From Myxococcota bacterium (GTDB lineage: Bacteria; Myxococcota_A; SURF-8): a stretch of DNA of 64,000 nt. Below, piece by piece: positions 5,153 through 26,630 of the stretch (the first letter of the stretch is position 1; every line of letters starts with the position of its first letter). The stretch spans positions 512,001 through 576,000 of the forward strand of contig CAXXQS010000001.1 of the NCBI GenBank assembly GCA_963674735.2, given 5' to 3'. The notes below the pieces were generated by a model, which saw only the letters and a program-made list of their open reading frames with translations, made no database searches and was not told where the DNA came from. The position numbers were made by a program, and so were the translations under genes.

Positions 5153-5189
5153 GATCGTTTACTCTTCATGTGTTCGTTTAGGCGTAGGC

Positions 5190-6541: not shown

Positions 6542-6566
6542 TCGCACGATCATGCGAGTGTGTCAA
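6542..6566 (-). promoter_or_regulatory. Putative ArsR operator overlapping the operon promoter
   Basis: Imperfect palindrome TCGCACGATCATGCGA (6542-6557) next to a minus-strand TTGACA (6561-6566). Confidence 0.4.
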
Positions 6567-6599
6567 TATCATTTTTCCCGACCGACGCTTTTTTAAGCC

Positions 6600-8156: not shown

Positions 8157-8453
8157 TCAATCTTGCTCGTTTTCCACACGAAATTGGCGATGACCTTCGA
8201 AAATCGTAACTACGATGATCTGGCCTTTTTCCAACCGATAAACGATTCGATAATTTCCTTCAATCACTTCCCGTAGACTTTCGTCGCCTGCCTCAGGGAC
8301 AATTCTTCCAAGCCGAGAATGTTTTTTCAATGTCGCTGCACGCTTCCAAAGGCGAGATACGAAGCGAGTAGCCGCCCTAGGGTCGTCCTCACCTATATAT
8401 TCGCCGATACGTTCCAATTCGTTCAACGCCTTGCCAGACCAGATGAGTTTCAT
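8157..8453 (-). CDS. RelE/ParE-family toxin
   Basis: MKLIWSGKALNEL...YIGEDDPRAA...GRIVPE...REVIEGNYRIVY. Confidence 0.9.
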   Translation of the reverse strand: MKLIWSGKALNELERIGEYIGEDDPRAATRFVSRLWKRAATLKKHSRLGRIVPEAGDESLREVIEGNYRIVYRLEKGQIIVVTIFEGHRQFRVENEQD

Positions 8454-8740
8454 GATTCGAGCGGACCGAATCGTTTCTCAAGTCTCTCCTTTGCCTCTTT
8501 TTCGCTTAAAACCCGTCCGGCCGCGACATCGGCCAGTCCGGCCTCAACCGAGGCGATGAAATGATCCCGCTCCATCATCCGGTCGTATTCATCGGGTGAA
8601 ACAACGACACCGACAGGTGAGCCATTTTGAGTGACGATGACAGGGCGTTTTTCCTCGCGTACACGGCGAAAAAGTCTGGAGGCGTGTTTTTTGAATTCCC
8701 CAATTGGGAAAATATCCTCGGATATGAGTGGGGTTCGCAT
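8450..8740 (-). CDS. Phd/YefM-family antitoxin
   Basis: PIGEFKKHASRLF...PVIVTQNGSPVGVVVSPDEY; overlaps the toxin start by 4 bp. Confidence 0.9.
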   Translation of the reverse strand: MRTPLISEDIFPIGEFKKHASRLFRRVREEKRPVIVTQNGSPVGVVVSPDEYDRMMERDHFIASVEAGLADVAAGRVLSEKEAKERLEKRFGPLES

Positions 8741-8806: not shown

Positions 8807-8980
8807 CAGGCTTAAATACAGGAGTGGTTGGTCCGCTAAACGTATGCAATTCAACGGCACAATGGCGGCACATCATGGATCTAGTCTATGCGTGACGACG
8901 ATCCGGATACGTGGGGCGACGGAAGGGGCATAAGTGAGCACTTCCGCGATGGCACGGGCACGCACTGGGGCACGAAGACT

Positions 8981-10444
8981 TACCCAGTCTGACTGACCAT
9001 AGCTGTGACTCGCCGCCGCCGTGGCCGCCGTACCTTCAGCCAAGTTTCCATACCCAGTCTGACTGACCATAGCTGTGACAACATCAGTACCAATGAAAAT
9101 CTGCATGGCTGCGAATCGTTTCCATACCCAGTCTGACTGACCATAGCTGTGTCGGTCAGGACGGCACCGACGGTGTCAGCTGCAACGGCGTTTCCATACC
9201 CAGTCTGACTGACCATAGCTGTGACGGTAAGGTGTGCTCATTCGGTGAGTGGTGCTCATTCGGTGTTTCCATACCCAGTCTGACTGACCATAGCTGTGAC
9301 TCGCCGCCGCCGTGGCCGCCGTACCTTCAGCCAAGTTTCCATACCCAGTCTGACTGACCACAGCTGTGACTCCGGTGGACGACGGCTGCTTCGAGGGCTA
9401 CAAAAGTTTCCATACCCAGTCTGACTGACCATAGCTGTGACCGAATCCGTATTCCACCGCTTCGAGGGGTATGAGTTTCCATACCCAGTCTGACTGACCA
9501 TAGCTGTGACCCTGCCCGTTCTACAGCCGTTCGCAACTGCGCTGGCCTTCGGGTTTCCATACCCAGTCTGACTGACCATAGCTGTGACTTTACCACCCGA
9601 TTATCAAATCGGCCTAGCCGCTGTGTTTCCATACCCAGTCTGACTGACCACAGCTGTGACGGAGTCTGATAATCAAACAGGTAACTTAGGATAGTTTCCA
9701 TACCCAGTCTGACTGACCATAGCTGTGACAGTGATGAAGGCCGTTGCATATCGGATTGCTTGCAAGGTTTCCATACCCAGTCTGACTGACCATAGCTGTG
9801 ACGATTTTCATGTTTCACCCGCTCGGACAAGGATTCGCGTTTCCATACCCAGTCTGACTGACCATAGCTGTGACGAGTACAATCAGGTTCAGATGTGGGC
9901 CTGTATGTTTCCATACCCAGTCTGACTGACCATAGCTGTGACCATAAACCACATGGTGTGGGAGGAATACCCGTAGTTTCCATACCCAGTCTGACTGACC
10001 CCATAGCTGTGACAATTTCTTCGGTTACGGCCCACATGACGATGACTGGTTTCCATACCCAGTCTGACTGACCATAGCTGTGACAAAATCCCTGCCGAAC
10101 TCTTGGAGTCCCAAGCGGGATTGTTTCCATACCCAGTCTGACTGACCATAGCTGTGACGTATGCTCCAGGTGTGGAGCAATGATGGCGGAGGCAAGTTTC
10201 CATACCCAGTCTGACTGACCATAGCTGTGACTTCTTCGCCTCCGATTGCCGGTGAAGTCGTGTTGAGTTTCCATACCCAGTCTGACTGACCATAGCTGTG
10301 ACACCAGAATATGGTCACTATCATCAACAAGGTCCGTTTCCATACCCAGTCTGACTGACCATAGCTGTGACGAAAACGCTAGTTTGCCAGTGGATAAAAG
10401 GGAGGAGGGTTTCCATACCCAGTCTGACTGACCATAGCTGTGAC
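8981..10444 (-). CRISPR. CRISPR array 1: 21 repeats (trailer one truncated), 20 spacers; repeat GTCACAGCTATGGTCAGTCAGACTGGGTATGGAAAC
   Basis: 36-bp repeats with 32-42 bp spacers; the GGAAAC 3' end, the leader on the right and the degenerate left end give minus orientation. Confidence 0.98.
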
Positions 10445-10811
10445 TCTGGCCTTGTAAAGACTGGGAACCGTTGGGCTTTCAGACCGGGTTTGACAAGTCA
10501 CCCCTCAAAATCCACTCACTATAGCCGTCAGACCGGAAAAAATGGGGTGCAGCAAAACTTTGGCACAAGCTAATCTCTTGTTTTCAAAGAGCTTTTCCAA
10601 TTTGACAAGTCTCCAGCATGAAAACGAGCCGCCAAAGATGCTTTATCTAGTGAAGATTATAGGAGATTATGCCTGTTGCACGACTTTTGCAAGCGAAATA
10701 TTCCGCAGACTTGTCAAATTATTAGCGAATATTTTATAATCCTGAATGATATCAATGGGTCGCACGACAGCTTATAGTCATTCTACATCAGAGCTATTTC
10801 TGTTGCACCCC
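10445..10811 (-). promoter_or_regulatory. CRISPR leader copy 1 (367 bp)
   Basis: Near-identical to 15082-15448 and 26264-26630. Confidence 0.85.
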
Positions 10812-10844
10812 CCCTTGGCATGTCCTGTTTTTTGAGATGATAAA

Positions 10845-11135
10845 CTAAATGATAATGGCTGTCGGTGGTCCGGGAAGCTGCGTATCTCCGAATAAACTCG
10901 TATTCTCGCGACAATCCTGACAGAGGCGATAGACCTTGACCGTGTCCGTCTCATCCAAAATGAACGACAACTCATCCAGCAGGCGCTTCAGGTTTGCGGA
11001 TGAACAAACAAGCTCATACACGCAGTCCTGGACCCGATTGCCTTTGAATTTCAAGGTCTCACGAATCATCCTTTGACGTGCATGGCTTTTCACGTCGTAC
11101 ACCACCACCCAAAGGAAAAACTTGGAATCAGGCAT
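10845..11135 (-). CDS. cas2: CRISPR-associated Cas2
   Basis: VVYDV...GNRVQDCVYE...DTVKVYRLC. Confidence 0.92.
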   Translation of the reverse strand: MPDSKFFLWVVVYDVKSHARQRMIRETLKFKGNRVQDCVYELVCSSANLKRLLDELSFILDETDTVKVYRLCQDCRENTSLFGDTQLPGPPTAIII

Positions 11136-11144
11136 CTCATACTC

Positions 11145-14033: not shown

Positions 14034-14069
14034 ACCCAACTCCTTTCAGCGGTTCAAGAGATCAGTGGG

Positions 14070-15081
14070 CAGTCTGACTGACCATAGCTGTGACGATCAA
14101 CCCCCAGTGGGTGATAACGGTCGGAACGAGAGTTTCCATACCCAGTCTGACTGACCATAGCTGTGACTTTGAAGAGCTGGTTTACGCTCCTCCTCAGCAG
14201 GTTGTGTTTCCATACCCAGTCTGACTGACCATAGCTGTGACCTCTGGTGGTTTGGCCTAATTGTGCTGGTACTGTTTCCATACCCAGTCTGACTGACCAT
14301 AGCTGTGACATGGTCATCTTGTTGCTGCTGTGCGCCACGTAGTTTCCATACCCAGTCTGACTGACCATAGCTGTGACTCTGGCCGATGAGGACAAAAGCA
14401 CCCTGTCGAAGTTTCCATACCCAGTCTGACTGACCATAGCTGTGACAGATCACAACTACGATATCGTCAAGCGTGAATTGTTTCCATACCCAGTCTGACT
14501 GACCATAGCTGTGACGCGGCAAGGGACTTTTTACTCACACCGGCGACATGAGTTTCCATACCCAGTCTGACTGACCATAGCTGTGACCATAAACCACATG
14601 GTGTGGGAGGAATACCCGTAGTTTCCATACCCAGTCTGACTGACCCCATAGCTGTGACAATTTCTTCGGTTACGGCCCACATGACGATGACTGGTTTCCA
14701 TACCCAGTCTGACTGACCATAGCTGTGACCTCTGAAGCCGAAACCACCTAAAAGGAGGTGAAGTTTCCATACCCAGTCTGACCGACCATAGCTGTGACGA
14801 GGAATGCCAGATCGAAGAATGGGGGGTGGAAGTTTCCATACCCAGTCTGACTGACCATAGCTGTGACTAGGAGTAGGACTTGGACTTTTGGCACTTGGTG
14901 GGTTTCCATACCCAGTCTGACTGACCATAGCTGTGACTTGATTGTATATCTAGCATCTTCTAGTATGATAATGTTTCCATACCCAGTCTGACTGACCATA
15001 GCTGTGACGCTGGACGGCTCGAACACCTTGTGTGTTCCGGACTATGTTTCCATACCCAGTCTGACTGACCATAGCTGTGAC
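14070..15081 (-). CRISPR. CRISPR array 2: 15 repeats (trailer one partial), 14 spacers
   Basis: Same 36-bp repeat as array 1. Confidence 0.98.
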
Positions 15082-15448
15082 TCTGGCCTTGTAAAGACTG
15101 GGAACCGTTGGGCTTTCAGACCGGGTTTGACAAGTCACCCTTCAAAATCCATTCACTATAGCCGTCAGACCGGAAAAAATGGGGTGCAGCAAAACTTTGG
15201 CACAAGCTAATCTCTTGTTTTCAAAGAGCTTTTCCAATTTGACAAGTCTCCAGCATGAAAACGAGCCGCCAAAGATGCTTTATCTAGTGAAGATTATAGG
15301 AGATTATGCCTGTTGCACGACTTTTGCAAGCGAAATATTCCGCAGACTTGTCAAATAATTATCGAACATTCAATTATTCTCAATGATATCATGGGGTCGC
15401 ACGACAATTTATAGTCATTCCACATCAGAGCTATTTCTGTTGCACCCC
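15082..15448 (-). promoter_or_regulatory. CRISPR leader copy 2 (367 bp)
   Basis: Near-identical to the other two leaders. Confidence 0.85.
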
Positions 15449-15483
15449 CTTTAAAACAGAGAATCGGTGTAGATGGTGAAGCC

Positions 15484-17247
15484 CTAATTCTTGGGTAGCA
15501 ATCCTTTCTCGGTCTTGCATTTATCGTGGCAACTGACGATGCCGGAAATGCAATCGATGATGTCCGATCCTGTCCATATCAAGAACAAGGTAAGAGCTGA
15601 GAAAATGGGAATGCTGTATAATCCGATCGTCAGCAATAATTCTCCTTCGCTGCCTTCTCCCATTATCTCTTTGAGGTTCATGCCGAAGATCGAGGCGATC
15701 AGCGCCGGACCGGCCAGACCCAACATCGCAATATTCAGATAAGCGATGGAACCGAGCCTTCGCCCAACGGTTGCGTTGCTGAAATCGTGCAGGGCTTTGA
15801 TTTCTTTTTCGACCTCATCGAACAGCCGTTTGTTGCCCAAGTTGCGGCTCCACAGGTCAAACATTTCGATTCCCTGCTCCTGGCCGGTGACTTCGGAAAA
15901 CCAATATTTGTTGTGGAACTTCAGGAAGTCGGATCGCAAATCTTCCAATTCTCGGTGCAGCTTTTTGTTCTCCAACTTCCCTGGAGAGGTTGCTTGTTGC
16001 GCCAGTCGTGCCGCTCGATGGGAAAGATTCAGCAAAATCGCCCGCTGACCGATCAACAGATTTGCCATCTGGAAATACATCGAGTTGAAATGCTCCGGGA
16101 TCAATGTGCAGTTTGCATAACCGTTGCCGTGCAGCAAATACGTCCCGCTGTATCTTGTAAATCCATAATACGATCCCCAATCTCGAAAACGCAGATACAA
16201 GGACTGTTCCAGGCAATGGTCCCTGAATTCAGGATTAGAGGTATATTCCGTTGTGGAAGGATCGATAAAAATATATTGATAGAGCCGTTTTCTGAATTTT
16301 TCGCTTTGTGTCGTCAATTCGCCGAGGGGATTTCGAGTTTCACCGAACCGACACGGTCTGAACTCGCGTTCCCCAAAACCGGTGTCTGCATCATCAACAA
16401 TGGCTAACGAGCATACGAAGTTTCGCTCATCGAGGATCGGATTGAGGTTTTCGACCCTCAACGACTTTTTCAAATCCTTTGACTCTCCCGCACCGACAAG
16501 ATCTGCAAACAATTTTTCAATCCAGAATGTATAATGCTCGCCGATATAAGAGTTGGATTGCAGATCGTCTTCCTTGTCGGAATCGGGCTTTTGAGTGATG
16601 AATTCATCGAAATGCCTGCCAAACATTTCGGTACTGGCCGAATTTCCATCGGCCTTGACAATCTTGATCGAGAGAGGCAGTTCGTTTGCCCCTTTCTGCG
16701 CTTCGGACCAGTCTTTAACGGGATGTCCGGATACGTGGTCATAAACCTGATCGTATCCAATAAACGAAGGCCCTGAACGGCGTAATAGATTATTGATATC
16801 CAGAGCATCATCCAAACTCAATTGATTCGGGCTAGTGGCGTCATCACGAACATAAGATACGCCAAAGATAAGTGCGCCTACATCGAGATCGTAAAAATAG
16901 CCCATCACCCAATCGAGATTGACGAAGCGCGTTTTCTCTTTTTGAGATCTGCGCCACGATATTTCTATTTTCCAATTCTTGATTTTCTCTTCATAAACCT
17001 CGAAAGCCATCAGGCAAGGTCGATCCGACATACCGGTGCCAAACAATAGTTCTCTGGTATGAGGATGGAAATACTGATACTCGGCGAAAGTTTCAGGGTT
17101 ATGCGGTGAGATTTCAGGGGTGCGGAAAAACCACTCCCCCACAAAGTCTTTACGGCTAGTGGGATTATTTGAATCTTTCAGGGCGTTAAACGTACCCTGC
17201 TTCAATGAAAACGGAAAGTAGAACTGGGCTTTATAGAGGTGTAGCAT
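15484..17247 (-). CDS. corA: CRISPR-associated CorA-family membrane effector
   Basis: Large soluble N-terminus, YFQMANLLIGQRA...WFSEVTGQEQGIEMF, then two C-terminal TM helices with the GMN signature (IFGMNL); directly after cmr6. Confidence 0.82.
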   Translation of the reverse strand: MLHLYKAQFYFPFSLKQGTFNALKDSNNPTSRKDFVGEWFFRTPEISPHNPETFAEYQYFHPHTRELLFGTGMSDRPCLMAFEVYEEKIKNWKIEISWRRSQKEKTRFVNLDWVMGYFYDLDVGALIFGVSYVRDDATSPNQLSLDDALDINNLLRRSGPSFIGYDQVYDHVSGHPVKDWSEAQKGANELPLSIKIVKADGNSASTEMFGRHFDEFITQKPDSDKEDDLQSNSYIGEHYTFWIEKLFADLVGAGESKDLKKSLRVENLNPILDERNFVCSLAIVDDADTGFGEREFRPCRFGETRNPLGELTTQSEKFRKRLYQYIFIDPSTTEYTSNPEFRDHCLEQSLYLRFRDWGSYYGFTRYSGTYLLHGNGYANCTLIPEHFNSMYFQMANLLIGQRAILLNLSHRAARLAQQATSPGKLENKKLHRELEDLRSDFLKFHNKYWFSEVTGQEQGIEMFDLWSRNLGNKRLFDEVEKEIKALHDFSNATVGRRLGSIAYLNIAMLGLAGPALIASIFGMNLKEIMGEGSEGELLLTIGLYSIPIFSALTLFLIWTGSDIIDCISGIVSCHDKCKTEKGLLPKN

Positions 17248-17271
17248 ATTCCGATATCCCGATAATGAGAA

Positions 17272-18507
17272 TCACGAGTCCAGCTTCGACCATTGTTTCA
17301 AATTGCTGATGCAATCTTTGTATCGCTTGGATATGCGTTTAAGCACGCTATTTTTCTTAAGCAGCCTTGATGAAAGAACACTTCTAAATTCAGCTCGATC
17401 CGGGTCGGTCATGTTCAATATGGCTTCGTATACCTCGGCATTGCTTAACTCTTTCTCGAAAGCCTGAGCCTCTAGAGCCAGTTTGTCGGACTGTGCCTTT
17501 TGAGCCGGATCGGAAGTTAGGATACGCCTGACAGCGTCGTTGTTTTTCCACTCATTCGTTGGTAATTCCCGCATACGTCCATAACCAATGGCTGTTTTCG
17601 CTCCGATACCTTCTTTCTCCAAAGCCATACAAAGAATATCTTTCGCCCAGGAGCGCCAACCGGGTGCACCTTCCAATGCAACAAAGAAGCAGACATCGCT
17701 CCCCAAAGTGATGAACGGTATCGGATTTGGGCTGTCGTAGTCGGCGGGCGGAGGGACATCGCCTTTTGTCGCATCCGCCTGATAGTAATCCTGATGATGA
17801 ACGGTCATGACATCCGGCAAAAAGGGGCTTTTGTCGGTCGGGATCCACCATGCGTCATGAAAGACGATGCACCCGGCAGCATCCTGTCTGCCGAAAAGAT
17901 TGTCATAATACGTATACCCGTTTGAATCCACAAACCCCATATTTTCGTATTTCTTGATTTCCTTTTCGGTCTTTTCCTTATCCGGTCCAGATTTGTGCTT
18001 CGCTTCGTGCCAGCTTTCAGGACTCGGCAGAAAAGCGGATCGATTATCATCGGGCTCTAAATCGGTACACACGTTGATTGCGTCTTGCCCTTTGCCTTCA
18101 GCCTGCCAGCCTCCATAATACGTTTTACAGAAGTGCGACGCCAGCCCCTTTAGGGCGGAGCCGGGAATCATCGGTGCGCCGTAGGTACGGTTCAAGGTGA
18201 TACTGTTTTCCAAAACGCTATCCGCTCCAAGGCCGACAGCAGCCCTGGATTTGGATTCGATAATGACAACATCGGTATCATTCTTCAGTGAACGGCAATG
18301 ACGCATAAGCGCTAAGTTATAACAATCTGGTGCGCCGTAGCTATTCATAAGAAACTCGTACAGTTTCTTCTCAGCTGCATGCTCGTCTTTGAAAGCTTCA
18401 ACATACTTATCCAACAACAAACCTGCGTTGATACCTTCTTTCGGTTTTGGGTACCTAAGCTTGCTTAGAGCATCGCGTCTGGCATTCAGTCCGTTTTTCA
18501 TGGCCAA
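17272..18507 (-). CDS. cmr6: Type III-B RAMP Cmr6
   Basis: VGLG...ENSITL...YGAPMIPGSALKG; DVMTVHHQDYY; PNPIPF; GIGAKTAIGYG. Confidence 0.93.
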   Translation of the reverse strand: MAMKNGLNARRDALSKLRYPKPKEGINAGLLLDKYVEAFKDEHAAEKKLYEFLMNSYGAPDCYNLALMRHCRSLKNDTDVVIIESKSRAAVGLGADSVLENSITLNRTYGAPMIPGSALKGLASHFCKTYYGGWQAEGKGQDAINVCTDLEPDDNRSAFLPSPESWHEAKHKSGPDKEKTEKEIKKYENMGFVDSNGYTYYDNLFGRQDAAGCIVFHDAWWIPTDKSPFLPDVMTVHHQDYYQADATKGDVPPPADYDSPNPIPFITLGSDVCFFVALEGAPGWRSWAKDILCMALEKEGIGAKTAIGYGRMRELPTNEWKNNDAVRRILTSDPAQKAQSDKLALEAQAFEKELSNAEVYEAILNMTDPDRAEFRSVLSSRLLKKNSVLKRISKRYKDCISNLKQWSKLDS

Positions 18508-18511
18508 CTCT

Positions 18512-18913
18512 CTAATCCGTGATCAGAATTTCCGCATAGCGTTTGTACCAAAGTCCGACATCCAAAGCTTTTTTTGTAAGCAGCATGTAATTCTCGCTTG
18601 AACAGTCATTACTGCTTAAATAACCATGAATAGTGTCGGTCGAAGACGCATTTGGCAATTCCAGGACCTCTTTAAGCTTTTCCAGGAAAACTTCGAAAGC
18701 TTTCGATTGCTCGGATTTCTTGTCGCTGGAGCCGCTGGCTTTGCTGTGGAAGAAGGCTACGGTCTGCATCAGGCCATTGGTTTTGACCAATATAGGAAAG
18801 CGCTTGCATACTCGGGAAAACTCGCCTTTCGGAAAGCCGCTCTTTTTGAGTAACTGGGTAAACTGGCCGTATATTTTCTGCGCATATACTTGGGATCGAA
18901 TCGTAAAAGCCAT
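18512..18913 (-). CDS. cmr5: Type III-B small subunit Cmr5
   Basis: FPILVKTNGLMQTVAF...WYKRYAE. Confidence 0.9.
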   Translation of the reverse strand: MAFTIRSQVYAQKIYGQFTQLLKKSGFPKGEFSRVCKRFPILVKTNGLMQTVAFFHSKASGSSDKKSEQSKAFEVFLEKLKEVLELPNASSTDTIHGYLSSNDCSSENYMLLTKKALDVGLWYKRYAEILITD

Positions 18914-18918
18914 GTCCG

Positions 18919-19845
18919 TTATCCTTTCGAAACCAGCCGCACACGACCGCGTCCTACTGTCGCTTTGCCACCCAATTGAATAGGGCGATCAGTAACAGTG
19001 GAATCGAATACGTAATCCAGTATTTGTTCGGGGCTATTCATGTCATTCAAGGGAGAGCCACCATCTTTGCCGCGCTCGAAGGAGTTGAAATGGGATCTTC
19101 CGGCAAGAGCCAGTCCCCATAATATACTCTCCGCCGGAAGCGCTTCTTCATACCAGAGAGCGCCTTTTTCCACGGTTTTCTTTTCGTCATCGATACGAAT
19201 ACGCGCGGCCACTTCTACGGCGTTTTGATAGAAGAATGAAAACACGTCATCACCGACAATAATGAACCGTTGTTTGAAATGATCCTGATATTCCTGGTCA
19301 TCCGGAAAAACAGAGGCTGCTATCGCCGCCGCCCAGTTGTCAACCAGTTCACAATATTGCGATCCGGTATCCACGCTCAGATCTAAATCCTCCAAATACA
19401 CCACCTCATTTCGGCAAGCGGCATTTTGATCGCCAACAAGGGCTTGCTTGCTTTCTGGAATTTTAGGAATTTCGAGGCTTGCATGATTAGAATCCCGTTT
19501 GTATCTTTGCAAGACTATCGGAGAAGATACCCAGGTAAAAACTCCATAGAATGAACGTACGGGAAGACATAGCAATCGTGCATCTCCGAATACTGTTGCA
19601 CCTGCATAGTCGGAGGCATTATCCGTGTCCGGGCCAAAGGCATTCATCACCCTATCCTTGACTCCGCCGTTCTTCTCCTTAGCCCAATGGCAATCTCGAA
19701 GTGCGCCCTTGATGGAGCTTCCAGGTACTATGGGTAAAGCCGTCGCCACCTCTCTTGCTATCGGGAGATCGAGGACACCCGATCCTTGCCCCGTTCCTGC
19801 GTGAAGAGCGGACAAAGCGTGTATATAATAAACGCGTTCAACCAT
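18919..19845 (-). CDS. cmr4: Type III-B RAMP Cmr4 (target RNase)
   Basis: LHAGTGQGSGVLDLPIARE with the catalytic Asp; PGSSIKG; LWYEEALP; QLGGKATVGRG. Start placed at ATG 19845. Confidence 0.95.
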   Translation of the reverse strand: MVERVYYIHALSALHAGTGQGSGVLDLPIAREVATALPIVPGSSIKGALRDCHWAKEKNGGVKDRVMNAFGPDTDNASDYAGATVFGDARLLCLPVRSFYGVFTWVSSPIVLQRYKRDSNHASLEIPKIPESKQALVGDQNAACRNEVVYLEDLDLSVDTGSQYCELVDNWAAAIAASVFPDDQEYQDHFKQRFIIVGDDVFSFFYQNAVEVAARIRIDDEKKTVEKGALWYEEALPAESILWGLALAGRSHFNSFERGKDGGSPLNDMNSPEQILDYVFDSTVTDRPIQLGGKATVGRGRVRLVSKG

Positions 19846-19862
19846 AATTCGTTCTCCCGTTT

Positions 19863-20978
19863 CTAAGACCAAATTCCCCAAAGCGCAAGACCGAAACCAT
19901 TCTTACGATCCATCTCATTGTCGCTGATTGGCTTCATCCAGGCCTTGTTCAGAATCTTTTCGCAATCAGCTTCGTTTTCCATTTCGAGAAAGTAAATGCT
20001 TCCGGCAGGAACTAGCCGTCGAAGCGGCTTCTGACCGGTCTGCATATCCCAACCGGCTATGGGTGTCCATCTTGGAACAGCAGCGGATACAAGGCGAAGA
20101 GAAACGCCGACTACATCCCAGTGGACATATACTGATTTATCCTTGCCGGTAAAAACTTTAGGTAGGAAACCACCATTAAACAGGGCGGGGGTTACAAGTT
20201 GAAGCTTGATTTTTAACGACTCCCTCGCCTTGACTAAAAGCTCATCAGGAGAATCGCTTGGCCAGCTATCTGAATTCAGTTCTGTAAAACCCGCAAAGCC
20301 GCCTTCTCCTCCTATACGGTGAAAGATAGGTCCGGAAAACGCATTCAAGTCGGAGGCTGATACCGAAACCAGATACCCTCCTTCGAGTAGTTCATCTCCC
20401 CGCATTACTTGAGGATAAATGGATTCGCTCTGGAATAAGTGACTATCCTTGGCAGTATTGTTGTCGCCAATCGTGACATGCGTACGGTGTTCTGTTTCGG
20501 GTGAGTAGCCGTTTTCAAGAACATCCGACAAGGAAACTTGCTCACAGGCCAGCCACTTATATAGCTCCTTATCTCTCCAAAATAACGGAGGGTCACTCAT
20601 CGGCTTTCCGCCAGTCTGATTACTGCCTATTGGCAGTAACCCATCCGGCAAATTCATGCCTTCGCCATCTTTCAGCTCGAAGGGAGAAAGCCTCTTTATA
20701 GCAGTAGCCGGTAATATGGCATCAGCAGGTGCGGGAAAATAGTTGTGATCGCCGAGACGCAACACCGGGCCGTAAATCGACCAGTCCAGTACTCGTGCGA
20801 CTTCTACATCTGTGAACGAATAACCGAGCTGTTTTCCAAGCAAGGTTCTGATCGTACCGGTGGTAACGGAAGGATGAGGAAAAAGCTGAGTGCGCGCCGC
20901 GTCTCCAGTGTTGAAAGGTCGCGTATCCCTGAAAAGAAGTGGGCCGTTGGGTTGAATATGCAGGATAGCGTCCATCAT
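19863..20978 (-). CDS. cmr3: Type III-B Cmr3
   Basis: PLLFRDTRPF...IGGEG...LVTPALF...GWDM...PAGSIYF...NGFG. Confidence 0.92.
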   Translation of the reverse strand: MMDAILHIQPNGPLLFRDTRPFNTGDAARTQLFPHPSVTTGTIRTLLGKQLGYSFTDVEVARVLDWSIYGPVLRLGDHNYFPAPADAILPATAIKRLSPFELKDGEGMNLPDGLLPIGSNQTGGKPMSDPPLFWRDKELYKWLACEQVSLSDVLENGYSPETEHRTHVTIGDNNTAKDSHLFQSESIYPQVMRGDELLEGGYLVSVSASDLNAFSGPIFHRIGGEGGFAGFTELNSDSWPSDSPDELLVKARESLKIKLQLVTPALFNGGFLPKVFTGKDKSVYVHWDVVGVSLRLVSAAVPRWTPIAGWDMQTGQKPLRRLVPAGSIYFLEMENEADCEKILNKAWMKPISDNEMDRKNGFGLALWGIWS

Positions 20979-22696
20979 CAGTCTCCCTGCGCACTTTTTA
21001 TTGCTGCGTTTATTTGTGAAGCAATCTGTAAACTGCTGGATAGCTGATATAGATCCTCCACATTGTTTATCCGAGATAGAAACTTACGAGCCACCTCTTC
21101 TCGAAAATCTTTTTCAATGACTTTCATCTCCAGCAGCCTTACAACCTCCTTGTGTAACAAATCAGATGTCACCCATGGCAGTTGCTCGTGCTTGACCGGA
21201 TCCACGTATGTATGAGCAAGATTCTTAAACCCATAGAGGGTACGGTGAGAAATGAGACCCTTTCCGATCCATTCCAGTTGCTTTTTCATCTGCGCGGCGG
21301 GATCGTTCGTCCACGGGCATGTCCAGATCGTAGGTGCTCCGGAACGCTTGTAAAGAGCAACTGTTATTTTCCCTCTTTTGGCTGTTCGCTCGGCATCGTG
21401 GGCGAGCCGCAACATATCTCCAGCCATGGGCGTGAGGGCGTGCACAATGGCGATGCCAACCGACAATGTTGCTCCCGATAGATGCTTCTCGAATTCTGCT
21501 TGAAGTTGTTTCGCACAGTCAAAGGCGTAATCGAGGGGCAGGTAAGCGACCACATCATCACCACCGGCGTATATCAGACTACCCAGGCAATTGGTTTCAA
21601 CGATAGTTCTTGCTTCGGCGGCAAACCTTGACAGGGCGATTGAGAAATCACGATGCTCTTTCAGCGACATGTTCTGCGCTCGTGCAGTCATGTTGTCGCC
21701 ATCGCAGGCGAGAAAGGCAAGATAAGGAGAGGGCTCTTGCCCAAGCTTTATTAACTCACTTTTGATTTTATCGAAAACACCATCAACCGGAATTTCCTTG
21801 TTAATCGTATCAAGTCGCTGCTTCATCAAGAGTTCGCCATCGAATGGAAATGCCTCAAAACGCGGTTTAAGTTGATCCGAAACCTCGACAAGCGATTTCC
21901 ACTTCGAGAGCTTATCATCAAGGTTGCTTTTTATTATGCTGGCGATCTTTTCCCGTGTTTTTTTTCGCTTATCGTTGTCCCTGCTTCCTCTAACCCAAGG
22001 ATCGACGGCAATGCGCGAAACCGATGGGTAACGCGTCTGCTCTCCTGCTCCAAGGCGCTTCACGACACCGGGCATATCCAAGTGCTCCCCCGGTTTGATG
22101 CCCCGCCAAAGTCTGTTGTTGATGATTTTTTTGTTACCCTTTTCAAGCACTGTCTCCCGGCATCCATCGAGCGAAGACTTCTGAACCTTGGATGGACCGA
22201 ACCATTGCTCGAACTCACTGGTGGCTTCACGCGCATTCAAAAGGCGCTCCACTTTTGCACGAGCAACCGGGTAGGCGGCAATATCGCCGTTACCGTCGAA
22301 TCGAACCCATGCAGAAAAAAACTCAACGAGGTTTTCGTCTTCGAGTTGTTTCTTCCATGTTTCCTGTTTGATGCCGATTGAATCACCATGCTTCTGTAGG
22401 ATATTCCTTGCGAATTCACGCCAACAGGTAACGGCGACATTGCAGCCGATAGCAGAAGCATCGGCGGGGTCGACACCATCGTTGAGATGCAGTAATATTC
22501 TATCGGAAACCGGTGAGTCATCTTCGAAGCTGGCAGGCACAACGGGCTCAGCCCCTAAATCGATGATGGCTTTGGCCGCCTTGCGCGCCATTTGTGCCAC
22601 GAACCATGAACTGAAATGCAAATCGCGCGTACGCCTGGAGGCCTTGATAAAATCGAACACGGGACCCACAGAAAACATGAAAAGGTGACGGCTCAT
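20978..22696 (-). CDS. cas10: Type III-B Cas10/Cmr2, no HD domain, intact GGDD palm
   Basis: Begins directly at SVGPVFDFIKASRRTRDL; ACDGDNM and IYAGGDDV motifs; only 572 aa. Confidence 0.93.
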   Translation of the reverse strand: MSRHLFMFSVGPVFDFIKASRRTRDLHFSSWFVAQMARKAAKAIIDLGAEPVVPASFEDDSPVSDRILLHLNDGVDPADASAIGCNVAVTCWREFARNILQKHGDSIGIKQETWKKQLEDENLVEFFSAWVRFDGNGDIAAYPVARAKVERLLNAREATSEFEQWFGPSKVQKSSLDGCRETVLEKGNKKIINNRLWRGIKPGEHLDMPGVVKRLGAGEQTRYPSVSRIAVDPWVRGSRDNDKRKKTREKIASIIKSNLDDKLSKWKSLVEVSDQLKPRFEAFPFDGELLMKQRLDTINKEIPVDGVFDKIKSELIKLGQEPSPYLAFLACDGDNMTARAQNMSLKEHRDFSIALSRFAAEARTIVETNCLGSLIYAGGDDVVAYLPLDYAFDCAKQLQAEFEKHLSGATLSVGIAIVHALTPMAGDMLRLAHDAERTAKRGKITVALYKRSGAPTIWTCPWTNDPAAQMKKQLEWIGKGLISHRTLYGFKNLAHTYVDPVKHEQLPWVTSDLLHKEVVRLLEMKVIEKDFREEVARKFLSRINNVEDLYQLSSSLQIASQINAAIKSAQGD

Positions 22697-24114
22697 AACG
22701 ACACCTTCTTACCATCTGTTTTTGATTTGAAATAATGGCAGAATGCCTCGGAAGCGGTCAATGCCTTCTGTTCATTCATCAATATTATTTTTTCTGCGGA
22801 ATCGGCATTCTCCATTTCTCGCCTTTTCAATGTATAATCGTGTCGATCATCGAATTCAAGTTTGACCGATCCGGGAAGATTCCAAACATGCGAAACATTA
22901 AGATTCAAGACAATGGGCAAATATGTTTGTTTGCCACCGATTTTGATGCTCATTACTTTGATTATCAATCGTGAGGCATATCGGTCTGTACCTGCAAAAG
23001 TCAGCTTTGCATTTGCTAGTTCATCCGGTCTGCCGATAAAGCGAAATTGAATAGGCAAGCCGAAATCCGCCCTAGGAAAATAGATGCGACCTGGATGGCT
23101 CGGTGTATGTCTTCCCCAATTCACCGTTGAAAATCCTTGTCGAATTTCTCTCAGTGAATCAGGTTCTGGCCAGCGGCTTCTACCCAATTTAAACCTGTTA
23201 CGCGGGTCGCTTCCCTTGTTGCGACCAACTTCTTCCCCCTGCCTGAATTCTTGAAAGAGATTGATCGCCTTTTTCCAGGCATCCTTGGCGGAATTGCAGG
23301 ATGCGCCGACATACAGATGGCTTCCGCTCAGTCGGGGCCATGGGCTTGTTTCTGAGTTGTCCGGTTTTGTAAATGCTTCGGATAGCTGATCGCAATTTTC
23401 TACGGAAAGTGCATCAAGAATTCCAGGAGGTTCGATGGATTCGAGTTCCAAGCTCCCCAATCCTCGGCGCGTTCTCGACCCATATCCTCCAAATAGAATC
23501 CATGCCTTGAGTGCTTGCGAGATCTGCTCACTCAGCCCGCTCTCGTTCGGAAAGGAAATGATCAATTTAAATCGAGCATCCTTGCGCACAAATTTCGTAG
23601 CCAACTCGTTGCCTAAATTGTCAGCCTTTCCGCGTTCTTCATTGGGTTGCTGTAATGTCCATAATGCGTAGGCCGGCCCTTCTTCAAACCTTGCAAACGC
23701 CTTGGGCGGCCCGCCACTATAATTTTGCGGATGAACGCCCGACCTTACGTATTCTCCCTCGGAAAGTACTTCCGTTTGCACGATAACTTTCGACGGCTCT
23801 CCTTCATCGTCGCCACTCGCACCGCCGAAAAGCTCACGTTCACGCACCAACAGCGCCTTATCATCTTTTTGGGTCGCTCCTGCCGTGGCGCGCCACCAAA
23901 ACCGAAGATGGCCTTTAACGGTTGAAGAACGAATCTCCGCAATCTCGGGTGTTGATCCCGCTTCGAACCCGCCGCCGAATATCGGAGTGATGACCTTAAG
24001 GTTGGCCGCGATTTCATGGTGCTTCCCGGAATATCGCTGGTCCACGTCATTGGCAATTGCGCTAGGATCCAACTGTAGGCCGGGACCGTTGACCGGAGTT
24101 CGGAAAGGCGACAT
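22693..24114 (-). CDS. cmr1: Type III-B RAMP Cmr1
   Basis: ITPIFGGG...KGHLRFWWRA...GGYGSRTRRGLGS...FGLPI. Start placed at ATG 24114. Confidence 0.93.
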   Translation of the reverse strand: MSPFRTPVNGPGLQLDPSAIANDVDQRYSGKHHEIAANLKVITPIFGGGFEAGSTPEIAEIRSSTVKGHLRFWWRATAGATQKDDKALLVRERELFGGASGDDEGEPSKVIVQTEVLSEGEYVRSGVHPQNYSGGPPKAFARFEEGPAYALWTLQQPNEERGKADNLGNELATKFVRKDARFKLIISFPNESGLSEQISQALKAWILFGGYGSRTRRGLGSLELESIEPPGILDALSVENCDQLSEAFTKPDNSETSPWPRLSGSHLYVGASCNSAKDAWKKAINLFQEFRQGEEVGRNKGSDPRNRFKLGRSRWPEPDSLREIRQGFSTVNWGRHTPSHPGRIYFPRADFGLPIQFRFIGRPDELANAKLTFAGTDRYASRLIIKVMSIKIGGKQTYLPIVLNLNVSHVWNLPGSVKLEFDDRHDYTLKRREMENADSAEKIILMNEQKALTASEAFCHYFKSKTDGKKVSL

Positions 24115-24292
24115 AACTAACCCCAACGATAGGTTTTGGAAAGCTGGAATTGATTGACTTCTCAACTGTACATTCTATTTATCATATTCAAAATGGCGTT
24201 TGCAAGATTATTCTTATGCATTTTAATCCAATTGCTTTAGTCTGCAAAACAACAAACCACTAGAGTCACGCAACAAGTCACCTACCGGGCGA

Positions 24293-25825
24293 TTAAATAT
24301 CATCATTTTTCAATATCATTCCCGCTTCTCTCGGATCGAAATCTTCAGGAAAGATTGTAGCACGAATTTCAGATTCGGTGTTTGGGTATATGATTTCAGA
24401 GTTATAAATCGCACCCTTTAGTTGAGCAGACTTAAAGTGCACCACACCTGAAAGATTTGCACCCCTTAAGTCCGCTTTCTCCAGATACGAATTGGTGAGT
24501 TCCGCCCCTTCCATATTGGCGTCTGATAAATCAGCACCATTCAGTAGCGCTCTCTGTAATTTACAGCCTTTCATGATGGCTCCTTGCAGAATGGCATTCT
24601 CAAGTTGAGCCTCTTGTAGGTTCGCCCTATCCAAACAAGACCCGCTAAGATCAGTATTCATTAGTTTGGCATTTACCAGCTTCGCATCTTCGAGGTGTAT
24701 GCGCTCCAGTTTCGCACTTTGGAGGTCTTTTCCCGAGAGATCAACACCTTTGAAATGAGCATCACGAAAATCTACCTCTTTAAATACAGCTTCTTTTAAA
24801 TCTACATTTTCCAGGGTTGCCTTGTTAAAGAAAGCATTTTCTAAGTTAGCTCCTCTGAAATCTACGTTTTTAAACTTTGCCCCAATTAGTTCGGCTCTTT
24901 GCAAGTGTGTTTTTTGCAATTCTACGTTTTCTAAAACAGCATTTATAAAAAACGCCCTTTCCAAGTGGGCATCATTCATTGTTGACTCTCTCACGTTCGC
25001 ATTATTGAATGAAGCACTTTCTAAACGGGCACGGTCCAAATACGATTTGTGCAAACAAGCCGAATGAAAACTTGCTCCTCCAAGGTTGGAATCTCCAAAA
25101 TCAACGCTACTGAAACTTGAATTTGATAAGTTAGCATTTCGTAAATAAGTACCGCGCAAGTCAACAATTTGCTTGTTTCTATCAGCAAATTTTAAACTCT
25201 TATCTCCAAGAAGAGTCAAAGCCGCTTGCACCTCTGCTTTAGGCGGCATACTTGATTCTTCATCTATTAAGCCAGACAGTCCATTGATGGCATCTTGCCA
25301 AGGCACAGTCGCTCGGATAAATGCCGATAGATATTCAACGATTATCTTACTATCACCAGGTGAGTCTTTTGCTATTCGCTCAAATTGTAGGATAGCCCCG
25401 ATTTTAGTTATAGGCTCTTGGTCTCCCAATAGCTCAAACGTTTTTGCCAAACGTTCTATAATAAGTCTTTTCTTCTCTTGCTCTACAGTATGCTTGTGCT
25501 TTTCCGCTGCAAGATTTGCGTTCGTTTGGGCGATATCTATTTCTTCATCCTTGTGCTTCACCCTCCAGATCCAAGTCAGAATTAGAGAGGGTGAAGCGGC
25601 AATGCCCGAAATCAGCACCCAAGCTTTCGCGTCAATCAGAAAACAGTACAGTGAGTCAAAGTTGACAACGTAGCTATATACTATGCAAGGAGCAACAACG
25701 AGAATGGCTCCAGTCACAGCCATGCAGATGATCCAACATGTCCTAGATTGTCCATTTCGTGTTTTAGATTCTGAAGATTCTAGATTCTCTTGCATCGTAT
25801 TCTTATCCTTTAGAATATCACCCAA
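24293..25825 (-). CDS. Membrane-anchored pentapeptide-repeat protein
   Basis: Two N-terminal TM segments, helical LLGD...IGAILQFERIA...LSAFIR domain, ~230 aa of A(D/N)Lxx repeats. Confidence 0.85.
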   Translation of the reverse strand: MGDILKDKNTMQENLESSESKTRNGQSRTCWIICMAVTGAILVVAPCIVYSYVVNFDSLYCFLIDAKAWVLISGIAASPSLILTWIWRVKHKDEEIDIAQTNANLAAEKHKHTVEQEKKRLIIERLAKTFELLGDQEPITKIGAILQFERIAKDSPGDSKIIVEYLSAFIRATVPWQDAINGLSGLIDEESSMPPKAEVQAALTLLGDKSLKFADRNKQIVDLRGTYLRNANLSNSSFSSVDFGDSNLGGASFHSACLHKSYLDRARLESASFNNANVRESTMNDAHLERAFFINAVLENVELQKTHLQRAELIGAKFKNVDFRGANLENAFFNKATLENVDLKEAVFKEVDFRDAHFKGVDLSGKDLQSAKLERIHLEDAKLVNAKLMNTDLSGSCLDRANLQEAQLENAILQGAIMKGCKLQRALLNGADLSDANMEGAELTNSYLEKADLRGANLSGVVHFKSAQLKGAIYNSEIIYPNTESEIRATIFPEDFDPREAGMILKNDDI

Positions 25826-25867
25826 TCACATAGTCTGTTACATATGCTTGCTTGGTGCTGTCTTGTT

Positions 25868-26263
25868 ATTTCCATACCCAGTCTGACTGACCATAGCTAT
25901 GACTGCCGAATTTGTTGCTGTATAAGCAGTACTCCTTGGTTTCCATACCCAGTCTGACTGACCATAGCTATGACGATACTCCGCTTGGAGGTACCGACTA
26001 TTCGCGTTGGTTTCCATACCCAGTCTGACTGACCATAGCTATGACACTTCTACGGATAGAGGGTGCGACGGCACCATCGAAGTTTCCATACCCAGTCTGA
26101 CTGACCATAGCTATGACTTTGGTAGTAGTATTAATCGTCATCGGGCTTTAAGAGTTTCCATACCCAGTCTGACTGACCATAGCTATGACGTCTTTGCCGC
26201 TGTTCCTTCCTGGGATGGCGCTACCTGGTTTCCATACCCAGTCTGACTGACCATAGCTATGAC
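25868..26263 (-). CRISPR. CRISPR array 3: 6 repeats, 5 spacers; variant repeat GTCATAGCTATGGTCAGTCAGACTGGGTATGGAAAC
   Basis: All six repeats carry the same single substitution relative to arrays 1 and 2. Confidence 0.97.
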
Positions 26264-26630
26264 TCTGGCTTTGTAAAGACTGGGAACCGTTGGGCTTTCA
26301 GACCGGGTTTGACAAGTCACCCCTCAAAATCCACTCACTATAGCCGTCAGACCGGAAAAAATGGGGTGCAGCAAAACTTTGGCACAAGCTAATCTCTTGT
26401 TTTCAAAGAGCTTTTCCAATTTGACAAGTCTCCAGCATGAAAACGAGCCGCCAAAGATGCTTTATCTAGTGAAGATTATAGGAGATTATGCCTGTTGCAC
26501 GACTTTTGCAAGCGAAATATTCCGCAGACTTGTCAAATAATTATCGAACATTCAATAATGCTCAATGATATCAAGGGGTCGCACGACAGCTTAAAGTTAT
26601 TCCATATAAGATCTATTTCTGTTGCACCCC
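26264..26630 (-). promoter_or_regulatory. CRISPR leader copy 3 (367 bp), overlapping the EamA stop codon
   Basis: Near-identical to the other two leaders. Confidence 0.85.

What the first reader, a model, noticed from the sequence alone, without database searches (positions are those of the whole stretch)
8981..26630. Type III-B CRISPR combining RNA spacer acquisition (Cas6-RT-Cas1) with CorA / probable SAM-AMP signalling and no visible off-switch
Seen: one co-oriented locus, leader3-array3-pentapeptide-cmr1-cas10-cmr3-cmr4-cmr5-cmr6-corA-leader2-array2-cas6RTcas1-cas2-leader1-array1. Cas10 has no HD domain, and there is no CARF/SAVED effector and no NrN, DEDD or SAM-lyase gene. Known: Cas6-RT-Cas1 enables RNA-derived spacers (Marinomonas mediterranea III-B). 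CorA-linked III-B (Bacteroides fragilis) signals with SAM-AMP and is normally paired with a degrading enzyme. Inference: this system can learn from RNA and responds by RNA cleavage plus membrane disruption, with an absent or novel signal-removal route. I do not know of this combination being characterised. It is the best candidate for a new system in this window.
Basis: partly seen in the sequence, partly recalled or inferred. Interest (0 to 1): 0.9.

Follow-up and report, generated by a model that had tools for sequence, protein, structure and literature searches.

The report
CorA-linked type III-B CRISPR, no degrader
This is a complete CRISPR immune locus that can probably copy RNA into its memory and probably kills or arrests infected cells through a membrane channel opened by the signal SAM-AMP; the gene mix is already known, but this lineage lacks every known enzyme that removes that signal.

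Summary
On the minus strand, 8974-26627, lie three arrays of one 36-nt repeat with near-identical ~364-nt leaders, cas2, cas6-RT-cas1, a CRISPR-type corA, cmr6-5-4-3, an HD-less cas10, cmr1, and a membrane pentapeptide-repeat gene.

SAM-AMP signalling is supported. Cas10 keeps GGDD and has the two acidic residues (D65, E157) that correspond to B. fragilis D70 and E151. Among its 151 nearest representatives only its own 8-member clade has D/E; 132 have N/K. In context, 5 of 5 D/E loci carry corA and 0 of 15 N/K loci do.

No NrN, DEDD or SAM-AMP lyase was found in the locus or the 5.26-Mb genome. The same holds for all 5 loci and 3 genomes of this corA subfamily.

The novelty claim fails. RT-Cas1 with CorA III-B is in print for B. 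fragilis and recurs in my survey. Loci without a recognisable degrader were also common there (36 of 80 and 24 of 80). III-D CorA systems without known degraders are published too.

What remains new is a distinct Cmr/CorA lineage: corA follows cmr6, CorA has DER instead of DDR, and the Cmr proteins resemble canonical cOA-type ones. Verdict: new variant of a known kind, moderate interest.

The parts
8974..10444 (-). CRISPR array 1: 21 copies of the 36-nt repeat, 20 spacers. Includes a degenerate trailer-end copy at 8974 and a copy with a 2-nt insertion at 9977-10014.
10445..10808 (-). Leader 1, about 364 nt, near-identical to leaders 2 and 3.
10845..11135 (-). cas2 (96 aa).
   Evidence: Pfam CRISPR_Cas2 E 4e-13, TIGR01573
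11145..14039 (-). cas6-RT-cas1 fusion (964 aa). RT motif FADD is present.
   Evidence: PDB 7kft Cas6-RT-Cas1 E 1e-87
14059..15081 (-). CRISPR array 2: 15 repeats including a degenerate terminal copy. It shares a 178-nt block with array 1.
15082..15445 (-). Leader 2.
15484..17247 (-). CRISPR-type corA (587 aa): a soluble N-terminal domain with R156-R157 and D273-E274-R275, a long stalk helix, two C-terminal TM helices and a GMN motif.
   Evidence: PADLOC CorA E 7e-70; A3 columns; TmCorA TM region E 6e-8 with the profile; AF2 pLDDT 87 and Foldseek CorA prob 0.99
17272..18507 (-). cmr6 (411 aa).
   Evidence: TIGR01898 E 6e-39
18512..18913 (-). cmr5 (133 aa).
   Evidence: Pfam Cas_Cmr5 E 4e-21
18919..19881 (-). 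cmr4 (320 aa) with the catalytic-Asp motif VLDLPIARE.
   Evidence: TIGR02580 E 2e-68; aligned with the solved Cmr4 of entry 3x1l
19863..20978 (-). cmr3 (371 aa).
   Evidence: Pfam Cas_Cmr3 E 5e-54
20978..22696 (-). cas10/cmr2 (572 aa), no HD domain. Has the palm motifs DGD and GGDD, and the SAM-type acidic pair D65 and E157.
22693..24165 (-). cmr1 (490 aa).
   Evidence: TIGR01894 E 1e-13
24293..25825 (-). Membrane-anchored pentapeptide-repeat protein (510 aa). Co-oriented, but not conserved in related loci, so its membership in the system is doubtful.
   Evidence: Pfam Pentapeptide E 4e-59; hydrophobic N-terminal helices read; absent from the other 4 subfamily loci
25868..26263 (-). CRISPR array 3: 6 repeats (G>A variant), 5 spacers.
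26264..26627 (-). Leader 3.

Best explanation
This is a complete and probably active type III-B (Cmr) CRISPR-Cas system of the SAM-AMP/CorA kind, with an RT-based adaptation module.

Proposed mechanism, with each step marked as shown or inferred:
1. Cas6-RT-Cas1 and Cas2 insert spacers at the three leader-proximal array ends, and some spacers may come from RNA. Inferred from homology to the solved Cas6-RT-Cas1.
2. The Cas6 domain processes pre-crRNA. Inferred.
3. The Cmr1-6 complex binds complementary RNA and Cmr4 cuts it. The catalytic Asp motif is present.
4. Target binding switches on the HD-less Cas10. Its acceptor pocket has Asp and Glu where cOA-making Cmr2 proteins have Asn and Lys/Arg, so it most likely joins ATP to SAM to make SAM-AMP. 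The residues are shown; the chemistry is inferred.
5. SAM-AMP binds the cytoplasmic domain of CorA at the conserved RR / D(E)R interface and opens or perturbs the membrane channel, arresting or killing the cell. Inferred from B. fragilis.
6. This lineage has no dedicated SAM-AMP-degrading enzyme. The signal is probably ended when target cleavage shuts off Cas10, followed by dilution or a housekeeping enzyme. Inferred, and the weakest step.
For: Gene content and intact motifs.

Mapping of the Cas10 acidic pair:
- A profile of 55 CorA-linked Cas10s aligns to PDB 9lq5_B. Its numbering (D70 in GLFPDR, E151, GGDD at 326-329) matches the published B. fragilis residues, so the window's D65 and E157 fall on D70 and E151.
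- P. furiosus Cmr2 has N at the first position; solved chain 9arw has N and K.
- Across the 55 sequences D is present in 55 and E in 50.
- The D70N/E151R double mutant abolishes SAM-AMP synthesis (PMC13294483, passage citing Chi et al.).

Co-variation with corA:
- Of the 151 nearest 50%-identity representatives, 8 have D/E. These are the 8 best-scoring rows (the window's Cas10 and the 7 best hits) and form a clade with 100* support. 132 have N/K.
- 5 of 5 D/E loci have corA directly after cmr6.
- 0 of 15 related Cas10 loci from 400 other genomes of the same phylum have a CorA within the fetched flanks. 13 of those 15 read N and K, and none has D or E at a readable position. The CorA profile recovered 5 of 5 positive controls.

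CorA:
- R156 and D273 are invariant in 57 of 57 CRISPR CorAs, and RR is present in 55 of 57.
- The fold is CorA-like.

No degrader:
- Nothing in the window's genome.
- G002 and the genome of L004 also lack NrN and the lyase. The lyase model rang in 2 of 2 positive-control genomes.
- The 5 subfamily loci share no gene beyond cmr1-6 and corA, with RT-cas1 in 4 of them.
Against: - No biochemistry has been done on this lineage.
- Its Cas10 and Cmr4 are much closer to canonical cOA-type proteins than to the B. fragilis ones. Cas10 is 33-40% identical to N/K representatives but 14-21% to B. fragilis-type Cas10s. Cmr4 matches 3x1l at E 2e-41 and 9lq5_D at 2.5e-11.
- The D/E clade is a single clade, so the co-variation with CorA may reflect one evolutionary event.
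- In E. coli reconstitutions of B. fragilis CorA, immunity needed NrN or a lyase (PMC10600005, PMC12255297). A system with no degrader therefore departs from the only tested III-B example.
- CorA has DER where the other 47 of 47 CorAs have DDR, so its ligand or affinity could differ.
- No RNA run was available to show expression.
- Genome completeness is 94%, so a gene in an unassembled part cannot be excluded.
Confidence: 0.6

Rival explanations
1. A dedicated signal-removing enzyme exists but belongs to an unrecognised family. Candidates are a gene in trans (the genome has an NrnA-like DHH/DHHA1 protein and a 347-aa DHH protein), the neighbouring Phd-ParE pair by analogy with the VapBC-like module proposed for III-D2, or the pentapeptide membrane protein.
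For: - A degrader was indispensable in the reconstituted B. fragilis system.
- III-D2 authors propose a TA-module enzyme as the off switch.
- A Phd/ParE pair lies about 230 nt from array 1.
- The genome holds 3 DHH proteins: RecJ, a weak NrnA-like one and one unassigned.
- In one other degrader-less locus (L044) an NrN gene sits on another contig of the same genome.
Against: - The five subfamily loci share no extra gene.
- The TA pair and the pentapeptide gene are absent from the other four loci.
- ParE/RelE-fold proteins are not known nucleotide phosphodiesterases (from general knowledge, not from a call).
- The CorA-linked NrN profile does not reach the genome's DHH proteins even at E<=10.
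Confidence: 0.2
2. The Cas10 makes a cyclic oligoadenylate or another nucleotide rather than SAM-AMP, and this CorA subfamily senses that molecule, as proposed for the Actinomyces CorA clade that also lacks degraders.
For: - The Cmr module's nearest relatives are N/K-type, presumably cOA makers.
- Degraders are absent, as in the Actinomyces clade that is suspected to use cA6 (PMC11229360, passage).
- CorA has DER rather than DDR.
Against: - Both SAM-pocket acidic residues are present and clade-specific.
- There is no Csm6-2, CARF or SAVED partner in the locus.
- The RR and first-D ligand-site residues are conserved with the SAM-AMP-type CorAs.
Confidence: 0.12
3. The locus is a decaying or silent remnant carried in a mobile-element-rich island and no longer gives immunity.
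For: - IS/transposase ORFs and integrase, resolvase and conjugation genes flank it.
- Duplicated spacers within and between arrays suggest recombination rather than fresh acquisition.
Against: - All ten ORFs are intact with catalytic motifs.
- Of the 39 repeat copies that one search matched at up to 6 substitutions, 28 are exact.
- Three arrays have leaders at least 99% identical over the first 300 nt from the first repeat.
- 36 distinct spacers among 39, with no self-targets.
- Contigs from runs of another organism carry the same repeat with different spacers (weak).
Confidence: 0.08

Closest known systems
Bacteroides fragilis type III-B Cmr / CorA / NrN SAM-AMP system (Chi et al. 2023, PMC10600005; structures 9lq5-9lq8)
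   Same: - Cmr1-6 with an HD-less Cas10 that carries GGDD and the acidic pair (D70/E151 there, D65/E157 here).
- A CRISPR-type CorA with the RR and D-x-R motifs and two C-terminal TM helices.
- An RT-Cas1 adaptation module.
   Different: - No NrN, and no NYN was found among the ten locus proteins.
- corA follows cmr6 instead of preceding cmr1.
- CorA has DER, not DDR.
- Cas10 is only 14-21% identical to B. fragilis-type Cas10s, and Cmr4 matches the B. fragilis protein far more weakly than canonical Cmr4.
- Cas6 is fused to RT-Cas1.
Type III-D2 CorA system making SAM-AMP and SAM-AMP2 (PMC13294483, 2026)
   Same: - Uses a CorA effector.
- Makes SAM-AMP without NrN, DEDD or lyase in the locus.
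- CorA-dependent growth arrest was seen without the putative off-switch module (passage).
   Different: - The effector complex is a different subtype (III-D2, not Cmr).
- SAM is contacted by other residues (E8/Q186).
- It carries a VapBC-like TA module. Here only an unrelated Phd-ParE pair is nearby, and it is not conserved.
Cas6-RT-Cas1 adaptation modules (Thiomicrospira structure 7kft; Marinomonas mediterranea III-B, recalled)
   Same: Three-domain Cas6-RT-Cas1 with an FADD RT motif, an adjacent Cas2, and variable spacer length (32-42 nt). E 1e-87 to 7kft.
   Different: Here it is linked to a CorA-type effector module. RNA-derived acquisition is untested for this protein.
Actinomyces CorA clade with Csm6-2 (Hoikkala et al. 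2024, PMC11229360)
   Same: CorA loci that lack SAM-AMP-degrading enzymes.
   Different: Those are associated or fused with Csm6-2 and are suspected to use cA6. There is no Csm6-2 here, and Cas10 carries the SAM-type D/E pair.

Membership tests
Type III-B (Cmr) CRISPR-Cas | cas10/cmr2 together with cmr1, cmr3, cmr4, cmr5 and cmr6 | tested here: met
   NCBIfam equivalogs, all above their cut-offs; Pfam
SAM-AMP / CorA type III signalling | CRISPR-type CorA: soluble sensor domain plus a CorA-like two-helix TM domain | tested here: met
   PADLOC CorA E 7e-70; the profile hits the TmCorA TM region at E 6e-8; AF2 model pLDDT 87 with top Foldseek hits to CorA
SAM-AMP / CorA type III signalling | Cas10 with an intact cyclase/palm site (GGDD) | tested here: met
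   The GGDD positions are filled in all 55 aligned CorA-linked Cas10s (G379 and D381 invariant, G378 in 51 and D380 in 50 of 55), and the window has GGDD; D332 and D334 are invariant
SAM-AMP / CorA type III signalling | Two acidic residues in the acceptor pocket (B. fragilis D70 and E151) | tested here: met
   D65 and E157 align to D70 and E151 of 9lq5_B through profile A2; the pair is clade-specific against N/K relatives
SAM-AMP / CorA type III signalling | CorA ligand-site residues (B. fragilis R152/R153 and D219/D220) | tested here: inconclusive
   R156/R157 and D273 are conserved family-wide, but the second position is E274. The mapping to B. fragilis numbering rests on motif conservation only, because no B. 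fragilis CorA sequence was available
SAM-AMP / CorA type III signalling | Locus-encoded SAM-AMP degrader (NrN, DEDD or SAM-AMP lyase), described as typical or obligate for III-B | tested here: not met
   None in the locus or the genome; none in the 5 subfamily loci or in 2 further genomes for NrN and the lyase
SAM-AMP / CorA type III signalling | Synthesis of SAM-AMP and its binding by CorA | not testable with these tools
   Needs biochemistry
RT-Cas1 (Cas6-RT-Cas1) adaptation module | Fused Cas6, group-II-intron-like RT with an F/YADD motif, and Cas1, with an adjacent Cas2 | tested here: met
RT-Cas1 (Cas6-RT-Cas1) adaptation module | RT-dependent acquisition of spacers from RNA | not testable with these tools
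Spacers have no match in the window's genome
cOA / CARF-SAVED signalling | CARF- or SAVED-domain effector or ring nuclease in the locus | tested here: not met
   No such domain in the 10 locus proteins or in the 32 other window ORFs scanned

The most novel reading that the evidence does not exclude
This is a Cmr lineage separate from the B. fragilis-type CorA-1 cluster. It recruited CorA independently and converged on the same Asn-to-Asp and Lys-to-Glu changes in the Cas10 acceptor pocket. It gives SAM-AMP/CorA immunity with no signal-degrading enzyme at all, which would make it a natural counter-example to the rule that a degrader is required. The clade-specific DER variant of the CorA ligand site may be what removes the need, for example through faster ligand release or no desensitisation.
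Probability: 0.2. Interest if true: 0.7.

Novelty: new variant of a known kind. Interest (0 to 1): 0.45.

Why it matters
The field's open puzzle is why B. fragilis CorA immunity needs an enzyme that destroys its own signal. The authors call this requirement 'enigmatic' (PMC12255297, Discussion read).

The 2025 classification paper names loci without SAM-AMP-cleaving enzymes as the exceptions worth studying (PMC12669027, passage).

This lineage is a compact seven-gene III-B module (cmr1-6 plus corA). It has the SAM-type Cas10 pocket, and I found no NrN or SAM-AMP lyase in any of its three genomes; DEDD was tested only in the window's genome. It is therefore a clean test case: does this CorA work alone, and if so, which CorA or Cas10 features make the degrader unnecessary?

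The sharp N/K to D/E switch inside an otherwise canonical Cmr2 family also gives a small, testable set of substitutions for converting a cOA synthase into a SAM-AMP synthase.

The RT-Cas1 part is ordinary for this family.

Tried and rejected
- Independent origin of the D/E clade. The quick ML tree places it among N/K Cmr2s, away from the B. fragilis-type clade. The AU test does not reject one clade of all CorA-linked Cas10s (lnL difference 5.9, p-AU 0.37). Independent origin is therefore not shown.
- A built-in enzyme in CorA. The AF2 model (pLDDT 87.4) matched only CorA, CmaX and Mrs2 (prob 0.87-0.99, low TM). The N-terminal domain had no enzyme-like hit. phmmer against PDB found nothing.
- The pentapeptide protein as an effector. 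There is no PADLOC hit. NCBIfam hits to HetL, Qnr, PipB and HalA fall below their cut-offs and reflect the repeats (the Alr5209 pentapeptide family, 128.2 against 125 bits, just passes its cut-off and is likewise a repeat match). The N-terminal part gave only 'hypothetical' Atlas clusters. It is absent from related loci.
- Searches of the order, class and phylum for the CorA subfamily. Only G002 was found, among 10, 10 and 401 genomes.
- Rfam. No family reached threshold in the window.
- Expression. No RNA holder was listed.
- Read laying on array 2. Only fragmentary contigs were returned, broken at the repeats. Runs of a second organism show the same repeat next to other spacers. No conclusion on acquisition was drawn.
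- A DEDD domain in the 627-aa ORF after cmr6 of L064. No PDB hit. Pfam RNase_T hits in five genomes with degrader-less loci all lie outside the fetched loci as far as coordinates allow.
- My degrader tally uses profiles built from this survey's own loci, so divergent families would be missed.
- Supplementary files of the papers were not seen. Supplementary tables of PMC11229360 and PMC12669027 may already list this lineage or III-B loci without degraders.
- Two literature searches, on 'RT-Cas1' with 'CorA' and on CorA / reverse transcriptase / type III-B / Cas1 / NrN, found no paper on a degrader-less III-B CorA clade. That is no proof that none exists.

Full report
**What is there.**
The locus runs on the minus strand from about 8974 to 26627. 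In transcription order it contains:
- leader 3 and array 3;
- a 510-aa membrane pentapeptide-repeat gene;
- cmr1, cas10, cmr3, cmr4, cmr5, cmr6 and corA;
- leader 2 and array 2;
- cas6-RT-cas1 and cas2;
- leader 1 and array 1.

Every cas gene is an intact ORF and matches its NCBIfam or Pfam family above the cut-off. The exception is corA, which Pfam and NCBIfam miss. PADLOC's CRISPR CorA models match it at E 7e-70 and 3e-64.

One 36-nt repeat is used throughout. Arrays 1, 2 and 3 hold 21, 15 and 6 copies, counting degenerate terminal copies and a copy with a 2-nt insertion. Spacers are 32-42 nt. They have no match elsewhere in the genome apart from a 17-nt chance hit. The repeat occurs nowhere else in the 5.26-Mb genome.

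The leaders are at least 99% identical for the first 300 nt counted from the first repeat. Similarity continues to about 400 nt.

One spacer is duplicated within array 1. A 178-nt block is shared by arrays 1 and 2.

Cas10 begins directly at the Cmr2 N-terminal region, so it has no HD domain, and it keeps DGD and GGDD. The RT has FADD, as in the solved Cas6-RT-Cas1 7kft (E 1e-87). Cmr4 keeps the catalytic Asp motif.

**Which signal.**
I aligned 55 Cas10 proteins encoded next to CRISPR-type corA genes: the window, two close relatives and 52 from the genome contigs survey.

The profile's best solved match is 9lq5_B (E 3e-120). Its numbering reproduces the published B. fragilis residues: D70 in GLFPDR, E151, and GGDD with D328/D329. 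The published values were read in passages of PMC10600005 and PMC13294483.

The window's D65 and E157 fall in those two columns. D is present in 55 of 55 sequences and E in 50 of 55. Canonical Cmr2 proteins differ: P. furiosus has N at the first position, and solved chain 9arw has N and K. The paper gives N300 and R436 for P. furiosus.

An exhaustive HMMER search of 1.84 billion representatives listed the 150 best hits. After alignment with the window's Cas10, the 8 closest sequences (at least 41% identical) carry D/E. Of the rest, 132 carry N/K, 7 carry D/T or D/N, and 4 are gapped or other.

In a quick ML tree the 8 D/E sequences form a clade with 100* support.

For genomic context I used five loci of this clade: the window, G002, L004, L091 and L092. 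All five have corA immediately after cmr6. As a control I fetched the 15 other Cas10 homologues found in 400 other genomes of the same phylum. Of these, 13 read N and K, one was readable only at the second position (K), and one could not be read cleanly (one of its two overlapping frames reads N and R). None has a CorA in the fetched flanks, although the CorA profile recovered 5 of 5 positives.

Because the D/E group is one clade, this may be one evolutionary event rather than 5 independent ones. Even so, the switch coincides exactly with CorA.

**CorA.**
Across 57 CRISPR CorAs the window's R156, D273 and R275 are invariant. R157 is present in 55 of 57. These are the only RR and D-D/E-R pairs conserved across the family, so they most likely correspond to R152/R153 and D219/D220, whose mutation abolished immunity in B. 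fragilis (passage). I could not anchor the numbering, because no B. fragilis CorA sequence or structure was available.

All 10 members of the window's subfamily have DER; the other 47 have DDR.

The AF2 model (pLDDT 87.4, pTM 0.84) shows a mixed alpha/beta N-terminal domain, a very long stalk helix and two C-terminal helices. Foldseek's best hits are T. maritima CorA, CmaX and Mrs2. The N-terminal domain has no enzyme-like match.

**The missing off-switch.**
From the 80 CorA loci of genome contigs I identified the three known degraders:
- an NrN/DHH domain, fused to or beside corA (PADLOC DHH_CorA, E down to 1e-84);
- DEDD (Pfam Rv2179c-like, PADLOC DEDDh);
- a 128-131-aa family (PADLOC Mvol_0529-fam) that is the SAM-AMP lyase (PDB 9gad, E 6e-51).

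Neither the PADLOC models nor HMMs built from these genes find anything convincing in the window's genome. The genome's three Pfam DHH proteins are RecJ, a weak NrnA-like protein and an unassigned 347-aa protein.

G002 and the genome holding L004 also lack NrN and the lyase. The lyase model rang in both control genomes.

The five subfamily loci share nothing beyond cmr1-6 and corA, plus Cas6-RT-Cas1/Cas2 in 4 of 5. G002 has no RT-Cas1 within about 19 kb.

The absence is therefore real and is a trait of the lineage.

**Why this is less novel than proposed.**
RT-Cas1 with CorA III-B is shown in Fig. 1b of Chi et al. and applies to B. fragilis itself. In my survey a fused RT-Cas1 ORF lies near corA in 8 of 80 genome loci and 10 of 80 metagenome loci. 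These are lower bounds, since many contigs are short.

Loci with no recognisable degrader are also frequent in my survey:
- 36 of 80 genome loci, and 11 of the 20 that have a complete cmr operon and at least 3 kb on both sides;
- 24 of 80 metagenome loci.

Spot checks found housekeeping neighbours or small unannotated ORFs beside corA, and no RNase_T domain inside the fetched loci. In one case, L044, an NrN gene lies on another contig of the same genome.

The published picture is that most III-B CorAs have a degrader, while III-D and an Actinomyces clade do not. For III-D2, SAM-AMP synthesis and CorA-dependent growth arrest without the putative off-switch module were reported in 2026.

**What is distinctive.**
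Five features set this lineage apart:
- corA follows cmr6, whereas 62 of the 80 survey loci have a cmr1-family gene and, wherever both genes were recovered, corA lies upstream of cmr1, except in L061, where it also follows cmr6;
- CorA has the DER signature;
- Cas6 is fused to RT-Cas1, which I found only in L091 and L092 by BLAST with the window's Cas6 domain; L004 is cut off at the contig end;
- no NrN or SAM-AMP lyase was found in any of its three genomes (DEDD tested only in the window's genome);
- the Cmr module resembles canonical N/K-type systems far more than B. fragilis-type ones. Cas10 is 33-40% versus 14-21% identical. Cmr4 scores E 2e-41 to 3x1l versus 2.5e-11 to 9lq5_D.

The tree nests the clade among N/K proteins. 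The AU test cannot reject a single origin with the B. fragilis-type clade (p 0.37). Convergence therefore remains a hypothesis.

**Mechanism and odds.**
My estimates are:
- SAM-AMP/CorA abortive-type immunity with RT-assisted adaptation and no dedicated degrader: 0.6;
- an unrecognised degrader: 0.2;
- a different signal: 0.12;
- an inactive remnant: 0.08.

**Verdict.**
This is a new variant of a known kind. Its value is as a compact natural test case for the unexplained degrader requirement of CorA immunity, not as a new kind of system.

Noticed in passing
window 8157-8740 (minus strand): A Phd/YefM antitoxin (8450-8740, Pfam E 3e-17) and a ParE toxin (8157-8453, E 2e-17) overlap by 4 nt, about 230 nt beyond the trailer end of array 1. 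The pair is not present in the other four subfamily loci. III-D2 CorA systems carry a VapBC-like TA module proposed as an off switch.
   Followed up: partly
window 27799-28260 (minus strand): A stand-alone 153-aa CAP12/PCTIR TIR-domain protein (Pfam E 1e-37; weak NCBIfam Cap12 NAD+ hydrolase hits). It lies just past an EamA/YddG-like transporter (26613-27539) next to leader 3 and has no visible sensor partner.
   Followed up: no
window 353-7736 and 28297-63493: The CRISPR locus lies in a mobile-element-rich stretch. It includes IS1-like and rve_3 transposase ORFs, a primase-like protein, a Fic protein, two tyrosine integrases, serine recombinases, a T4SS coupling protein, Replic_Relax proteins and a DUF5131 protein.
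   Followed up: no
proteins P0043, P0079, P0091, P0115, P0139, P0142, P0161 (nearest Cas10 representatives): A starred 7-member clade of HD-less Cmr2 proteins has Asp at the N300-equivalent position but Thr or Asn at the Lys position. This third pocket type has unknown genomic context and unknown product.
   Followed up: no
L011 8762-9850, L020 972-2066, L021 (Campylobacterales CorA loci): A Card1-like CARF-plus-endonuclease gene sits directly upstream of corA in loci that show no NrN, DEDD or lyase. This would pair a cOA-type sensor with a CorA system.
   Followed up: no
L068 9301-9846; L083 14252-14806; L044 17614-18117; L004 11694-12122: Small ORFs of 142-184 aa with no Pfam or NCBIfam match lie directly beside corA or cmr6 in degrader-less III-B CorA loci. 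They are candidates for unrecognised SAM-AMP-handling proteins.
   Followed up: partly
window 9907-10084 and 14552-14729; 9010-9043 and 9301-9334: A 178-nt block (repeat, spacer, a repeat with a CC insertion, spacer, repeat) is 100% identical between arrays 1 and 2. One spacer is duplicated within array 1. Both point to recombination between arrays.
   Followed up: partly
window 13900-15500 laid with runs X4 and X6: Contigs from runs labelled as a second organism carry the same 36-nt repeat flanked by different spacers, and a leader variant with about 9 differences. A related array therefore exists elsewhere with other spacer content.
   Followed up: partly
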